Positions 14,331-20,017 of a stretch of DNA of 64,000 nt are shown here, in pieces (within the stretch, counting starts at the first letter, position 1; each line of letters opens with the position of its first letter). This DNA comes from Escherichia coli (GTDB lineage: Bacteria > Pseudomonadota > Gammaproteobacteria > Enterobacterales > Enterobacteriaceae), in the NCBI RefSeq assembly GCF_041248615.1, contig NZ_CP158426.1, one strand, 5' to 3'. A model generated the notes under the pieces. It did not search any database and was not told where the DNA came from. It saw nothing but the letters and a program-made list of their open reading frames with translations. The translations under genes were made by a program, and so were the position numbers.

Positions 14331-16448
14331 TCAGAAAGTCACATTCAGCGTGGCCTGACCGTTATAACCTTCAGCGCTGCTGCCGCTGACACTGTGGGCA
14401 TAACCGGCCTGAACGCCCAGGGTGATATTTTCCCGGACACGGGCTTCCAGTCCGGCCTGCAGGTCCAGTGACGTGCCATTCCGGGACGGTGAGAACGTCA
14501 TGTTACTGCCGGCGGCGGCTGTACCCATGCTCATGTCACCCCGGGAGCTGAAAGTGCGGATAACAGAAGGCTGTACCCACCAGTTCACCGGCAGTTCACT
14601 CACACGGTGTTTTGTACTGTCGCGCAGAGTGTCACGGGATGAGGTGCCTTCGCCAAAGGTCATATCGTTGTGGCTGCCCAGACGGAAGCCGGCACGCACA
14701 TGTTGTGTACTGCCATGCCCGAACTTCACATAACCGGCGTTATCCTGGCCGTCATCCAGGGAGAGCCCCTGCCAGGTGTACTGCAGTTGTGGCTCCAGCA
14801 TCAGGTTGTCAGTGATACTGAAGGGCAGACCGGTTTCCAGTGAGCCCAGCCAGCCCCAGCCCCGGGCGCGGAAGTCGTTATTGTCCGATGACGCTTTCAT
14901 GCTGTGGCGGGTTCCCTGTGCCACAATGTCAGCCCACAGGCCGGAGGACGTGTGTGTCAGATTCAGGTATCCGCCCAGGCTGCCGGCATCATCCCGGACC
15001 GTGCCGGCGCGGGAACCGTCATCATCCTTAACATCAACGGAAGAATGGCCTGCAGCACCATATACCCCTGTCGTCAGAGACATACCGGCAACCTCTGTTC
15101 TGAGCAGGTCACCCTCCAGATGGACGAAGCCATAGCTGCCGCTGCTTTCCGGCGTGGCTCCACGGGCAATACCGCCGTTGTTATCGTGACCGAGATGACC
15201 GCCCTGAATGCTGAGACGGACGCTGTTATTTTCACCGCTTACACCGGTCTGATGGCTGCGGGAGCCTGCCAGAATCCGGTCATAGTCCATTGCCTGTGTC
15301 AGCATGGAGGCATACAGGGGGACTTCAGCACGATAAGCATTTTCACTGCGCAGGTACCAGTCTTCATCGCTGTCACGGTTCAGGGTGTAGTTAAAGGCTC
15401 CGGCCTGAAGCGGGCGACTCAGGGCAAACGCACCTTCTTCTGTGGTGGCACCATTCTGTGCATCCACAACCCGGATACCCTGTCCGGAGGTTGCCACCCC
15501 GAGGTTACTGTTTCCGACATTTGTAAACGCAAGCCAGGTTTTGCCGGTTGCCTGACCACCATTAATCACCAGCTGGTCAGAGGTATTGCTGCCATCAAGG
15601 CGAACACGCATATTGATGGTGCCACCCTGACCGGTGAGGTTACTGGTTGTCAGTTTATGGAACGTTACCGGGGCGTTGCCTTTTGCAACAGCACGGCTCA
15701 GTACGGCATCCGGTGTTGTCTGATTGTCAAAGTAAATCTCCCCTGCGTTAACAATATCGCCGGTACTGACCACATCACCATTCAGTACCATGCTGGCGCC
15801 TTTACTGAGCTGTGTTCTGCCACTCAGACTTCCCCCGGCAGCCAGCATCAGTGTTCCACGATGTCCGACAGTGGTGTTGCTGGCCTGTCCCCCGGCATTA
15901 ACCGTAAAGCTGCCGCCATTTTCCAGCAGCAGGTCGCTGGCCTGACCGGATATGCCATCAATACTGAACTTACCGCTGGCATTGGTCCCCTCAACAGTGG
16001 CACCACTGTCTGCTATCAGGGCACCACCGGATGTCATGGTGACATCTGTTGCCTTACCACCGGCAGACACTGCCAGGGTACCGCCGTCATCCACCAGTGT
16101 TTTCTGCGCTGAATGGCCCTCCAGTACATCCAGGCGACCGCCGGACTCCAGAACAACGCCGTCAGCCTTACCGTTTTCCACTGTGAAATTGCCCAGACGG
16201 TTGCTGCCGGTGACGGTTGCCGCCGTACTGGTGACCAGTGCGCCGCCCTGCGTCAGGGTGACATTCGTGGCTGTACCACCGGCGTTCACCTGCAGTTTGC
16301 CTTTCTGGTTAACGGTGGTGAAATCCGCCAGACCACCTTCCTTGATAATCTGCCAGCCGTCACTGTTAACAACAGTGCCAGACGCCGTACCGCCGTTGTG
16401 CACATACTGGTACCCCCCATTCAGCGTGGTATCCAGTGCGTGACCATG
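14331..16448 (-). pseudogene. flu: antigen 43 (flu/agn43) autotransporter, distal portion (passenger remainder + beta-barrel), separated from its 5' end by an IS insertion
   Basis: Glycine/threonine-rich beta-helical repeats and autotransporter C-terminus ending ...ATLNVTF; continues upstream until the IS boundary at 16449. Confidence 0.8.
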
Positions 16449-16533
16449 TGCGTATTACCGTGAAGGAGATCGGTGAGTAACATCGATGGAGATCGGTTCG
16501 TGTCACTTTCACAGAACCGTTTTTAAATTACCT

Positions 16534-17283
16534 TCACTGATCTCCTTCGGTCAACGGAGATTGTATTTTCCGCATTGATTCTCCTTTAAGTTCGATCTTG
16601 ATACTGCCATGAACCAGTCGATCTAGGATGGCATCCGCATGTGTGGAGTCTCCGATCATTTTGTACCAGTTTTCCACCGGCAACTGGCTCACTACGATGA
16701 TTGAGCCTCGTTGGTACATCAGATCCACTATTTCCAGCAGGTCGCTACGCTGTTCTGATGAGAGAGGTTCCAGCCCCCAGTCATCCAGAAGCAGCAGATC
16801 GCTATTATTCAGCCTGGTCAAAAGTTTGCTGTATCTTCCATCAGCATGCCCCTGATAGCACTGTTCCATCAGCGCTTTAAGGCGATAATAGTAGACCTTG
16901 TATCCCTGTCGGCAGGCATTATGACCAAGTGCACATGCCAGGAACGTTTTACCGCTGCCGGTGGCCCCGGTCAGTAAAATATTTTGTTTCAGGGTTAACC
17001 AGTTTCCCTGACTGAGTGAACGGATGAGGGCCCTGTCCAGCCCTCTATTGTTACGATAATCCAGCTTTGATAACTCAGCATTAAGTCTGAACCGTGCATG
17101 TTTGATCAGACGCTCTGCCTTCCTGTTTTCACGGCAGGTTAGTTCTTCTGCTGTCAGTAATGACAGGCGTTCTTCGAAGCCCAGCTCCTGGTATGTGCCC
17201 GGCTGAGCAAGTTGCTTTTTAAGCGCATCACGGAAGCCGGTGAGTTTAAGTGCGGTCAGTTGTTCGTAAAGATGATTCATCAT
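16534..17283 (-). CDS. istB: IS21-family helper ATPase IstB
   Basis: 249-aa ORF with Walker A motif GATGSGKT. Confidence 0.85.
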   Translation of the reverse strand: MMNHLYEQLTALKLTGFRDALKKQLAQPGTYQELGFEERLSLLTAEELTCRENRKAERLIKHARFRLNAELSKLDYRNNRGLDRALIRSLSQGNWLTLKQNILLTGATGSGKTFLACALGHNACRQGYKVYYYRLKALMEQCYQGHADGRYSKLLTRLNNSDLLLLDDWGLEPLSSEQRSDLLEIVDLMYQRGSIIVVSQLPVENWYKMIGDSTHADAILDRLVHGSIKIELKGESMRKIQSPLTEGDQ

Positions 17284-17294
17284 TGGATCCCGTA

Positions 17295-18836
17295 TCAGTG
17301 GTAATACTCACTGCCGCGTACGTTTTCGTGTTCCATCGTGGATAACAGATCTGGTTTTGGATCCTGAACAGGTTGTTTATCCAGACCTTTTTCCAGGATC
17401 GATTTAATACCTGACAGACGCCATACCTTTGTTTTCAGAGCTCTTGCACATGCTGCATTAAGTCTGGCTTTACTGTATTTTTTATGAAGGTTCAGGAGTC
17501 CAAGGCAGAAGCGATAGCTTTGTTCCGGATGTGGACGAGAGTTCAGTATATGAAGCACATAACTATGAGTTTCACTGCCTATGTGCCCCGCCCATTCCAG
17601 AAGACGCTCTGGCGTCCAGGTGGCATGCTGTCGATGAGCTTCAGGCATGTGCTCGTTGCGGGTACTGTAGCCATAAGTACGCTTGCGCGGGTGCACAGCA
17701 ACCTCCTGCCCCTGATTGAAGAGTCTTACCAGTTCTCCGGAGATCCATGCTTCCAGTTGCTGGCCTAACAGCGAACATGGAACCGAGTAGTAATGTTTGT
17801 CGATTTCCACGTGGTAATCGGCATGAACTCTGACTTTCTTCACCAGGGTGTAACTGTAACTGGCTTCAGGAAGAGGCTTCAGTGCGGGTTTATCAAGCTG
17901 GATGAAGAGTTCTGCACGTGAATAACCCAACTTCTGCATTATTTTGTTATTCAGTCTTTCCAGCAACTCCCGAATGCGCTGATTAAGCGATGCAAGGCTG
18001 TAGAAGATCTCATGCCTGATTCGGGCCATGATCCAGCGTTCAACAACCTGAACGCCAACTTCAGCTTTGGCTTTATCTTTCGGTTTACGTGGCCGCGCAG
18101 GCAAAACTGCGACATTATAATGCTCAAGCATCTGCTGGTAGGTAGGGTTAACGTCAGGATCATACTTACATGCCCTGGATGTGGCGCTTTTCAGATTGTC
18201 CGGAACAACAAGTTCAGGAACGCCACCCAACCACTGGAAGCAGCGAACATGACTCATCACCCAGTCTTCAAGCTGCTGAGACCAGGTGGCCTCTGCCCAT
18301 GTGTAACTTGATGCCCCGAGAACAGCTACGATGACCTGAGCAGTTCTTATTTCTCCGGTCTCAGGGTCGGTAACGCCAACGGTAGGTCCACAGTAATCAA
18401 CGAAAAGTTTTTCGCCAGCTTTATGTACCTGACGCATTGATGGTGAAGTGGTTTTGAGCCATTCACGGTACATCCGGCAGTAATGGTTATAGCTGTAAAA
18501 ACCGCCTGGATTACGCTCACAGTATTCTTCCCAGAGTAGCTGCAGCGTCACGCATTTATTACGCAGTTCCCGGTGTACTGTAGCCCAGTCAGGCAGAGAG
18601 TGCTTCTTCATCTTAACCTGGGTCTGAAGGAACGCATGTTTTAGTTTTGTATCATCCCATCCTGTAGGTAAGGGCCACTGCTTTATGCCAAGTTGAGCCG
18701 CCCGATTAGCATATCTGGATACAACGGAAGGGGAGATTGCAAGACTACGACCAATTTGTCGATGGCTGAGTCCAACACCGTATTTAAGCCTAAGAATTTC
18801 TTTAAGTTTTCTCATAGAAATTGGAACTGTTGGCAT
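17295..18836 (-). CDS. istA: IS21-family transposase IstA
   Basis: 513-aa ORF with N-terminal HTH and DDE core; immediately upstream of istB. Confidence 0.85.
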   Translation of the reverse strand: MPTVPISMRKLKEILRLKYGVGLSHRQIGRSLAISPSVVSRYANRAAQLGIKQWPLPTGWDDTKLKHAFLQTQVKMKKHSLPDWATVHRELRNKCVTLQLLWEEYCERNPGGFYSYNHYCRMYREWLKTTSPSMRQVHKAGEKLFVDYCGPTVGVTDPETGEIRTAQVIVAVLGASSYTWAEATWSQQLEDWVMSHVRCFQWLGGVPELVVPDNLKSATSRACKYDPDVNPTYQQMLEHYNVAVLPARPRKPKDKAKAEVGVQVVERWIMARIRHEIFYSLASLNQRIRELLERLNNKIMQKLGYSRAELFIQLDKPALKPLPEASYSYTLVKKVRVHADYHVEIDKHYYSVPCSLLGQQLEAWISGELVRLFNQGQEVAVHPRKRTYGYSTRNEHMPEAHRQHATWTPERLLEWAGHIGSETHSYVLHILNSRPHPEQSYRFCLGLLNLHKKYSKARLNAACARALKTKVWRLSGIKSILEKGLDKQPVQDPKPDLLSTMEHENVRGSEYYH

Positions 18837-19029
18837 AGGTATCCTTTACCGGAATGGCAAAAGATACAGATCAACACACCTGTGAAGTTCCAATAACATT
18901 GATGGAGATCACTGAATAACAAAATGAGTCAAAAGTGATCTCCATCGATGTTATTCAGCGATCTGTTCAAATGTTATTACCCGATCTCGATGGAAGTTAT
19001 TGAGTGATCTCCTTTCATGAAAATACGCA

Positions 19030-19764
19030 ACCATGTACAGTCTGGTCGCCGCCGGCATAAACCACAGTGGTATTTGCCGTTCCTTCAGCAGCCACAATCT
19101 GACGACCATTTTTATTGATGGTGGTGCGTACGGCATCTCCGTAGACGGTCTGCCCGGTATCACCATTTTCCGCATCCGGTCCCCCTTCCGCGCCGGTATT
19201 CACAACCGTGTCGGTTGCCACTGCGCCGGATTTGACGGCCTGCCAGCCCTTCTCATTAATGACGGTACCCGTTGCAATCCCGCCTTCATGTACCCACTGC
19301 TCACCGCCGTTCAGCGTGGTGTTCACTGCCTGCCCCTGAAGGCTCTGTCCGCCTCCGGCACTGATAACCGTGTCTGAAACGCTTCCTCCGGCATTCACTC
19401 TCTGAAGACCACCACCGGTGACAGTAGTGTTGTTGGCGATACCGCCATTTTGTATCCATTGCCCGCCGGTATTGACCTCGTTATCCGGCCCATACTCCAG
19501 CCCGGTACTGATGGTCATTCCGTTGGTCGTACCGAAGACAATCTGGTTGTCATGATTTTCCAGTGCTCCGCCGCTCACGGTTTCTCCCGCCTGTACAACC
19601 GTGTCAGCAGCCAGTGCCGGGACTGATGTGACAGCAGCAAGAGACAGCGCAACCGCCACACCGGCGCGTTTTCCCCGTGAGCGGGCCAGTTCGGAGGCCA
19701 CCACCAGGGTGCCCGTAATGTGATTCCATACCAGCCTGTAGCTGGTGTTCAGATGTCGTTTCAT
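19030..19764 (-). pseudogene. flu: antigen 43 (flu/agn43), 5' portion (signal peptide + start of passenger)
   Basis: MKRHLNTSYRLVWNHITGTLVVASELARSRGKRAGVAV... is the Ag43 signal peptide region; frame runs into the IS21-family element. Confidence 0.8.
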
Positions 19765-19981
19765 CAGCTTTTCCTTACAGAGGGTGAATAAAAAAGCCGG
19801 TACCCACAAATGTGGATACCGGCAGGTACAAAACAGCATGGTCAGATAAAGTGTTTTTTCCCGGACATAAATGCTTCCCCTCTCTCATCCGCCAGAGAAG
19901 TATCAGTCCGTTGTGTGCAATTCCGTTCTGCATGATGAAGAGATTCAGCTGCCTTTTCGCAGGCCATTAACCACTATAAAC

Positions 19982-20017
19982 GATCGATTGTGACGATCGA
20001 TACCTGTTTTATCGATC
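19982..20017. promoter_or_regulatory. cluster of three GATC (Dam) sites upstream of agn43: phase-variation switch (Dam/OxyR)
   Basis: cGATCgattgtgacGATCgatacctgttttatcGATCg, about 220-250 bp upstream of the Ag43 start codon, matching the known agn43 regulatory region. Confidence 0.55.

What the first reader, a model, noticed from the sequence alone, without database searches (positions are those of the whole stretch)
16443..19035. IS21-family element (istA 513 aa, istB) inserted in antigen 43 with a 6-bp direct repeat
Inverted termini TGCGTATT...AATACGCA are flanked by ACCATG on both sides. The Ag43 N-terminal part (19030-19764) and C-terminal part (14331-16448) are on the same strand on either side. 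The IstA is unusually long (513 aa) compared with classic IS21/IS100 IstA proteins.
Basis: seen in the sequence. Interest (0 to 1): 0.4.

Follow-up and report, generated by a model that had tools for sequence, protein, structure and literature searches.

The report
ISEc12 insertion splitting an Ag43 gene
A well-known E. coli jumping gene (ISEc12, IS21 family) has landed inside the antigen 43 adhesin gene of one strain and inactivated it; this is ordinary and public databases already annotate it this way.

Summary
Window 16449-19029 is a 2,581-bp IS21-family element on the minus strand. It has TGCGTATT...AATACGCA termini, istA (513 aa) and istB (248/249 aa), and a 6-bp direct repeat ACCATG on each side.

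It is 100% identical over its full length to many copies annotated as ISEc12. Homologous sequence occurs in 1,908 of 5,426 complete E. coli genomes and 978 plasmids.

Removing the element and one ACCATG restores a 948-codon Ag43/Cah gene. That gene is 2,847/2,847 nt identical to the intact gene of strain GF43.

The window is E. coli NRZ14408 (NZ_LT599825.1). The junction is unique to this strain, so the insertion is probably recent.

Two corrections:
- A 513-aa IstA is the normal size for a large IS21 subgroup (ISEc12, IS1326/IS1353, ISPsy14; 507-518 aa). It is not unusual.
- ISEc12 usually makes 5-bp duplications (10 of 17 surveyed). Six bp is a regular minority outcome (4 of 17).

Side observation: ISEc12 lies in or beside Ag43 genes in 361 genomes at many different sites. 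Per copy this is about 60 times more often than the control IS2. This is unexplained and only partly followed up.

The parts
16449..19029 (-). Complete ISEc12 (IS21 family), 2,581 bp; genes read on the minus strand
   Evidence: 100% identity over 1-2581 to many copies annotated 'IS21-like element ISEc12 family'. The ends are defined by 19 copies in different contexts.
16443..16448 (.). Target-site duplication, copy next to the istB end (ACCATG)
   Evidence: The empty site in GF43, TUM9803 and BEN5202 has one ACCATG.
19030..19035 (.). Target-site duplication, copy next to the istA end (ACCATG)
17295..18836 (-). istA, a 513-aa DDE transposase: N-terminal helix-turn-helix region, rve catalytic core with D147/D213/E259, beta-barrel at 322-385, helical C-terminal domain at about 395-485, and a conserved C-terminal tip
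   Evidence: NF033546 scores 310.5 bits against a cut-off of 160. Pfam rve and Mu-transpos_C_2 also match. It aligns to IS5376 IstA, PDB 8b4h/8q4d. The DDE residues are invariant in 57 homologues. AF2 model, mean pLDDT 82. The product equals WP_001298859.1.
16534..17283 (-). istB, AAA+ helper ATPase (249 aa from the first ATG; RefSeq uses the second ATG at 17280, 248 aa). Walker A is GATGSGKT at 106-113 and Walker B is LLLDD at 164-168
   Evidence: NF038214 scores 270 bits against a cut-off of 200. PF01695 E = 2e-67. PDB IS5376 IstB 8q3w, E = 2e-27. Motif positions.
18904..19029 (-). Left (istA-proximal) terminal region: terminal TGCGTATT followed by four direct repeat units containing (G)(G)AGATC spaced 21-24 bp apart (cores at window 19006-19012, 18983-18988, 18960-18964, 18937-18943), plus one inverted unit (18904-18910). 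These are presumed IstA binding sites
   Evidence: Repeat families D1 and D2 and inverted pairs I1-I7. Motif positions. Multiple terminal repeats (L1/L2, R1/R2) are the IS21-family architecture (PMC10122671).
16449..16549 (-). Right (istB-proximal) terminal region: terminal TGCGTATT on the plus strand, two repeat units (GGAGATC cores at 16465-16471 and 16488-16494) and one inverted unit (16539-16545) that overlaps the istB 3' end
19030..19764 (-). 5' fragment of the Ag43/Cah gene (codons 1-245: ESPR signal peptide and the first AIDA repeats). As it stands the frame reads on into the IS for 4 codons (CVFS) and then stops
   Evidence: Pfam ESPR and AIDA. ORF 19015-19839. RefSeq pseudogene R2K29_RS04555.
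14331..16448 (-). 3' fragment of the Ag43/Cah gene (codons 244-948: AIDA repeats, autochaperone and beta-barrel translocator). It lacks a promoter and a signal peptide
   Evidence: Pfam AIDA, AC_1 and Autotransporter. RefSeq pseudogene R2K29_RS04540. The rejoined gene equals WP_112045750.1.
19982..20017 (-). Three GATC sites upstream of the Ag43 start, with the appearance of the Dam/OxyR phase-variation switch; intact
   Evidence: Sequence read. The assignment to the phase switch rests on established knowledge of agn43 regulation and was not tested here.

Best explanation
A complete, apparently functional copy of ISEc12 (IS21 family) transposed into codons 244-245 of a 948-codon Ag43/Cah autotransporter adhesin gene. 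The gene lies in the tRNA-Phe-linked genomic island of E. coli NRZ14408.

The mechanism below is inferred from the IS21-family model system IS5376. IstA binds the repeated units at both ends and synapses them as a tetramer. ATP-bound IstB decamers bend the target DNA, recruit IstA and activate it. The two 3' ends are joined to target strands 6 bp apart. Repair of the gaps duplicated ACCATG.

The consequence is an inactivated adhesin gene. The 5' part can at most make a 249-aa fragment carrying the signal peptide but no translocator. The 3' part has no promoter or signal peptide. The event is recent and specific to this strain.
For: Shown here:
- Both proteins pass NCBI's curated IS21 IstA and IstB models well above cut-off. 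They also match Pfam rve, Mu-transpos_C_2 and IstB_IS21.
- They match the solved IS5376 IstA and IstB structures.
- The DDE triad and Walker motifs are intact.
- The element is 100% identical over 2,581 bp to widespread ISEc12 copies.
- The ends are fixed by 19 copies in different contexts.
- Terminal and subterminal repeats are present.
- Deleting the IS plus one ACCATG gives a gene 2,847/2,847 nt identical to the intact Ag43 gene of GF43. Only 8 differences occur over the 7-kb locus.
- The 25-kb neighbourhood is collinear in TUM9803 and GF43 apart from about 10% of the query, a gap the size of the IS.
- The junction is found in 1 of 5,426 genomes.
- RefSeq annotates it the same way.

From the literature: the IstA tetramer on the terminal repeats (PMC10122671); IstB decamers bending the target and activating IstA (PMC11208146).
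Against: Nothing contradicts it.

- The duplication is 6 bp, whereas most ISEc12 insertions, including the published tssM one, give 5 bp (PMC10711316). However, 6 bp and 7 bp occur in 7 of 17 surveyed insertions.
- Activity of this particular copy, and loss of the Ag43 phenotype, are inferred and not measured.
- The biochemical mechanism is transferred from IS5376. Its IstA is only distantly related (phmmer E = 3e-13 over the core) and lacks the long C-terminal domain.
Confidence: 0.97

Rival explanations
1. The arrangement arose by homologous recombination between two ISEc12 copies lying next to different partial Ag43 genes, or by another rearrangement, and not by a simple insertion.
For: ISEc12 sits in or beside Ag43 genes in many genomes. 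Two of the 19 surveyed copies lack a duplication, which fits IS-mediated rearrangement elsewhere (L005, L011).
Against: The two flanks carry an identical 6-bp repeat. They rejoin to a gene 100% identical to an intact allele in an otherwise collinear 25-kb region. Recombination between copies at different sites would not leave matching duplications.
Confidence: 0.01
2. The true duplication is 5 bp, as in the published ISEc12 insertion, and the sixth matching base belongs to the element or matches by chance.
For: The published tssM insertion has a 5-bp duplication (PMC10711316). Ten of 17 surveyed insertions have 5 bp.
Against: All 19 copies are 2,581 bp with the same first and last bases. The occupied site is 2,587 bp longer than the empty site. 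So 6 bp were duplicated. A 5-bp duplication cannot look like 6 bp unless all six bases are the same.
Confidence: 0.01
3. The insertion reflects a genuine regional preference of ISEc12 for the Ag43 neighbourhood, or local hopping within these islands. It is not a random hit that was merely tolerated.
For: 361 genomes carry ISEc12 within a few kb of this Ag43 segment (87 co-oriented, 274 opposite). The control IS2 does so in 27 genomes although it is about five times more abundant. Eleven distinct insertion points with their own duplications were verified by sequence. IstB selects targets by DNA shape (PMC11208146).
Against: Clonal relatedness was not removed and only one control IS was used. 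Ag43 is multicopy, dispensable and on exchangeable islands, so tolerance and recombinational spread could inflate the numbers. No shared target motif is visible in the 17 duplications. This rival concerns why the insertion is here, not what it is, so it is compatible with the main explanation.
Confidence: 0.35

Closest known systems
ISEc12 (IS21 family), as annotated by NCBI PGAP in E. coli, Shigella, Klebsiella and Salmonella chromosomes and plasmids
   Same: Identical: 2,581/2,581 nt to many copies. IstA equals WP_001298859.1 and IstB equals WP_001016257.1. The termini are the same.
   Different: Nothing in the element itself. Only the insertion site (unique to NRZ14408) and the 6-bp rather than 5-bp duplication differ.
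ISEc12 insertion in tssM of E. coli ST131 clade C (PMC10711316)
   Same: The same element inactivates a surface or secretion-related gene by simple insertion with a short target duplication.
   Different: That one has a 5-bp duplication (ACTGC) and is fixed in a whole clade. This one is 6 bp and is seen in a single genome.
IS5376 of Geobacillus stearothermophilus, the structural model of IS21-family transposition (PDB 8b4h, 8q4d, 8q3w)
   Same: Same gene order. IstA has HTH, DDE and beta-barrel domains. IstB is an AAA+ ATPase with an N-terminal domain. There are multiple terminal repeats (PMC10122671, PMC11208146).
   Different: IS5376 IstA is about 400 aa with a 45-aa flexible tail. ISEc12 IstA has about 128 aa after the barrel. 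AF2 predicts these as a confident helical domain (395-485) plus a conserved tip, H-x-N-[IV]-R-G-x-x-Y-Y-H. ISEc12 shows four left-end units rather than two.
IS1326/IS1353- and ISPsy14-type IS21-family elements
   Same: IstA of 507-518 aa at 59-69% identity over the full length, with the same C-terminal domain.
   Different: They are different elements with different hosts and ends. Their ends were not compared at the DNA level here.

Membership tests
IS21 family | Two consecutive genes on one strand: long istA (transposase) followed by short istB (helper ATPase) | tested here: met
   istA is 17295-18836 and istB is 16534-17283, both on the minus strand, with 11 nt between the stop and the first ATG.
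IS21 family | IstA matches the curated IS21 transposase model and has an rve DDE core plus a Mu-type beta-barrel | tested here: met
   NF033546 scores 310.5 bits against a cut-off of 160. PF00665 and PF22483 are above their gathering scores. D147, D213 and E259 are invariant in 57 homologues and align with D/D/E motifs of IS5376 IstA.
IS21 family | IstB is an AAA+ ATPase of the IstB/DnaC type | tested here: met
   NF038214 scores 270 bits against a cut-off of 200. PF01695 E = 2e-67. PDB IS5376 IstB E = 2e-27. Walker A and B motifs are present.
IS21 family | Imperfect terminal inverted repeats ending 5'-TG...CA-3', with multiple repeated subterminal units | tested here: met
   TGCGTATT...AATACGCA. 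The inverted repeat spans about 53 nt at 72%. There are four direct GAGATC-type units at the left end, two at the right end, and inverted units.
IS21 family | Short target-site duplication. The 4-8 bp range for the family is from my own knowledge | tested here: met
   6 bp ACCATG, verified against the empty site. ISEc12 copies give 5, 6 or 7 bp.
IS21 family | Transposition that depends on both IstA and IstB | not testable with these tools
   This needs a mating-out or in vitro integration assay.
ISEc12 (named element) | Near-identity to the reference ISEc12 sequence over its whole length | tested here: met
   100% over 2,581 bp to copies that NCBI names ISEc12. The ISfinder reference itself could not be queried, so the name rests on NCBI's annotation.
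Ag43/Cah self-associating autotransporters | ESPR signal peptide, AIDA-repeat passenger, autochaperone and C-terminal beta-barrel in one reading frame | tested here: met
   All four domains are found across the two fragments. The rejoined 948-aa protein is identical to WP_112045750.1, annotated as an Ag43/Cah family adhesin. In this window the frame is interrupted, so the gene is a pseudogene.
Ag43/Cah self-associating autotransporters | Dam/OxyR phase switch with three GATC sites upstream | tested here: met
   Three GATC sites lie at window 19982-20017. OxyR binding itself was not tested.

The most novel reading that the evidence does not exclude
ISEc12 has a real regional insertion preference for the Ag43-DUF905-DUF932 segment of E. 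coli islands. This could come from IstB-mediated selection of DNA shape or from local hopping. If so, it would recurrently switch off this phase-variable adhesin. The preference would be distinct from mere tolerance of insertions there. A second open point is that the long-IstA subgroup carries a conserved helical C-terminal domain and terminal peptide of unknown role. This might be an extra contact with IstB, analogous to the C-terminal hook of TnsB.
Probability: 0.3. Interest if true: 0.4.

Novelty: already known. Interest (0 to 1): 0.1.

Why it matters
For the finding itself it matters little. It is a textbook simple insertion of a named, very common insertion sequence, and it is already annotated in RefSeq. 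Its practical value is as a strain-specific marker for NRZ14408 and as evidence that this strain has lost one Ag43 adhesin copy.

Two by-products could be worth a small follow-up. The first is the excess of ISEc12 insertions around Ag43 genes compared with IS2. The second is the uncharacterised but conserved C-terminal domain of the 513-aa IstA class. The structural work on the family, done on a short IstA, could not address that domain.

Tried and rejected
1. I looked for other ISEc12 ends in the window. There are none beyond the two termini.

2. I tested whether the 513-aa length marks a fusion or an unusual protein. It does not. Homologues down to 59% identity have the same length and the same Pfam domains.

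3. I tried to identify the C-terminal 128 aa.
   - Pfam has no family there.
   - A profile search of PDB sequences hit only designed helical proteins.
   - Foldseek against the PDB found nothing better than E = 1.

4. I considered a 5-bp duplication with a 2,582-bp element. The 19 fixed-length copies and the empty site rule it out.

5. I looked for a target consensus among 17 duplications. None is visible by eye.

6. I searched the literature for a link between ISEc12 and Ag43. Nothing appeared among the listed papers. The Ag43 survey only says that CDSs disrupted by mobile elements were discarded as pseudogenes.

7. One paper reading failed on a term that was too short.
Full report
**Observation**

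- ACCATG lies at 16443-16448 and again at 19030-19035.
- TGCGTATT starts at 16449 and AATACGCA ends at 19029, so the element is 2,581 bp.
- A 16-nt degenerate pattern of the terminus occurs only at these two places in the 64-kb window, against 0.11 expected by chance.
- The inverted repeat is imperfect and continues for about 53 nt at 72% complementarity.
- On the minus strand are a 513-aa ORF (17295-18836) and a 249-aa ORF (16534-17283), 11 nt apart.

**Identity of the element**

The long protein passes NCBI's curated IS21 transposase model (NF033546, 310.5 bits against a cut-off of 160). It also carries Pfam rve and Mu-transpos_C_2 domains. The short protein passes the IstB helper ATPase model (NF038214, 270 bits against 200) and PF01695 at E = 2e-67. 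Both match the solved IS5376 IstA and IstB structures by sequence.

D147, D213 and E259 are invariant among 57 homologues and line up with D/D/E motifs of IS5376 IstA. IstB has Walker A GATGSGKT and Walker B LLLDD.

At the DNA level the element is 100% identical over all 2,581 bp to many copies that NCBI names 'IS21-like element ISEc12'. Matches occur in 1,908 of 5,426 complete E. coli genomes, 1,365 of them with a near-full-length copy. Matches also occur in 978 plasmids of Escherichia, Shigella, Klebsiella and Salmonella. ISEc12 is an element used in published genome analyses, for example its insertion in tssM of ST131 clade C (PMC10711316).

**True ends and duplication length**

I collected 19 ISEc12 copies from different contexts: 18 from other genomes and this one. 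All begin TGCGTATT, end AATACGCA and measure 2,581 bp. Of these, 17 have a direct repeat: 5 bp in 10, 6 bp in 4 (including this one) and 7 bp in 3. Two have none.

A 5-bp duplication cannot masquerade as 6 bp unless all bases are identical, so the 6- and 7-bp cases are real. The 6-bp duplication here is therefore a normal minority outcome for this element.

**Terminal architecture**

In the element's own orientation, the left end carries four direct units containing (G)(G)AGATC, spaced 21-24 bp apart, followed by an inverted unit. The right end carries two such units and an inverted one. This is the multiple-terminal-repeat layout described for the family (PMC10122671).

**The target**

The flanks encode an ESPR signal peptide and AIDA repeats on the 5' side. 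On the 3' side they encode AIDA repeats, an autochaperone and an autotransporter beta-barrel. Deleting the element and one ACCATG gives an open frame of 948 codons from MKRHLN.

A 1-kb rejoined flank is found at 100% identity in one piece inside intact Ag43/Cah genes of three genomes. The full rejoined gene is 2,847/2,847 nt identical to the GF43 gene for WP_112045750.1. The whole 7-kb empty-site locus differs at only 8 positions. Over 25 kb, TUM9803 and GF43 are collinear at 99.7-99.9%, apart from about 10% of the query, which is the size of the IS.

The insertion falls after codon 243, and the duplicated bases are codons 244-245. As it stands, the 5' fragment reads four IS-encoded codons (CVFS) and stops. 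The three GATC sites typical of the agn43 phase switch are intact upstream at 19982-20017.

**Source and prior annotation**

The window is E. coli NRZ14408, NZ_LT599825.1 928001-992000.

The locus lies in an island next to tRNA-Phe and yqgA. The island has an integrase, group-2 capsule genes and several other IS remnants. A 140-nt probe across the junction matches fully in only this one genome of 5,426. Together with 100% identity to other copies, this indicates a recent, strain-specific event.

**Mechanism**

What is shown: an intact two-gene IS21-family element with intact catalytic motifs, its terminal repeats, a 6-bp duplication and an exact empty site.

What is inferred from the IS5376 model system:
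- An IstA tetramer synapses the two ends through the repeated units (PMC10122671).
- ATP-bound IstB decamers bend the target into an S shape, recruit IstA through its beta-barrel and trigger strand transfer (PMC11208146).
- Staggered joining 6 bp apart, followed by repair, yields the duplication.

The functional consequence, loss of this Ag43 copy, is inferred from the domain layout and was not measured.

**The 'unusually long IstA'**

The 120 best homologue clusters, down to 59% identity and nearly all at 99-100% coverage, are almost all 507-518 aa. They include proteins named IS1326/IS1353 and ISPsy14, and at least 7,998 clusters scored E <= 1e-10. So 513 aa is the norm for a large subgroup.

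Compared with the 400-residue IS5376 IstA, the extra length is about 22 residues before the catalytic core and about 83 more after the beta-barrel (PMC10122671). That C-terminal region is highly conserved. AlphaFold2 predicts it with pLDDT around 90 as a helical domain at about 395-485. A low-confidence tip follows, bearing the invariant residues H503, N505, R507 and G508 and the nearly invariant Y511, Y512 and H513.

**Side observation**

ISEc12 sits in or next to Ag43 genes in many genomes. With a chimeric query (flank + IS + flank), 87 genomes have the IS co-oriented with Ag43 within a few kb and 274 have it in the opposite orientation. The listed rows show many different spacings.

I verified 11 distinct insertion points by sequence, each with its own duplication. 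Seven are inside Ag43 genes and the others are in the neighbouring DUF905-DUF932 region and cbtA.

The same test with IS2 gave 14 + 13 genomes, although IS2-like elements have about 25,000 places against 5,546 for ISEc12. Per copy that is about a 60-fold difference.

The caveats are important: clonality was not removed, only one control IS was used, the joining tolerances differ slightly, and Ag43 is multicopy, dispensable and on exchangeable islands. I could not separate target preference from local hopping, recombinational spread or selection.

**Verdict**

The finding is real, correctly interpreted and ordinary. It is a recent simple insertion of the known element ISEc12 into an Ag43/Cah gene, and it is already annotated in RefSeq.

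Noticed in passing
window 14331-19764; loci L003, L004, L013-L020: ISEc12 is found in or beside Ag43 genes in 361 genomes (87 co-oriented, 274 opposite) at many different sites. Eleven distinct insertion points were verified by sequence. The control IS2 is there in only 27 genomes despite being about five times more abundant. This could be target preference, local hopping, or a clonal or selection effect.
   Followed up: partly
window 17295-17681 (IstA residues about 386-513): The long-IstA class has a conserved, confidently predicted helical C-terminal domain. It also has a conserved terminal peptide, H-x-N-[IV]-R-G-x-x-Y-Y-H. There is no Pfam family and no informative structural match. The equivalent short tail of IS5376 IstA has no defined role in the published structures.
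   Followed up: partly
window 16449-16630 and 18870-19029: Every terminal repeat unit of ISEc12 contains GATC. There are 6 GATC sites in the first 160 bp and 5 in the last 180 bp, and 23 in the element against about 10 expected from base composition. IstA binding or transposition might therefore be sensitive to Dam methylation, as in some other IS families. Not tested.
   Followed up: no
loci L005 (plasmid of AR_0089) and L011 (MRY15-131 chromosome): Two full-length ISEc12 copies have no target duplication. This suggests IS-mediated deletion or recombination between copies at those sites.
   Followed up: no
window 38099-39570: An IS2-like element with an intact frameshifted transposase aligns to canonical IS2 in two pieces and spans about 140 bp more than the 1,331-bp IS2. 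This implies an internal insertion or duplication. It abuts a truncated ISEc38.
   Followed up: no
window 36305-36617: RefSeq annotates a frameshifted pseudogene as a 'Mu transposase domain-containing protein'. It may be a remnant of another IS21-type or Mu-type transposase in the same island.
   Followed up: no
window 1-43830: The Ag43 gene lies in a tRNA-Phe/yqgA-linked island. The island carries an integrase, group-2 capsule (kps) genes, a CbtA/CbeA toxin-antitoxin pair and remnants of IS110, IS1414, ISEc38 and IS3-family elements.
   Followed up: partly
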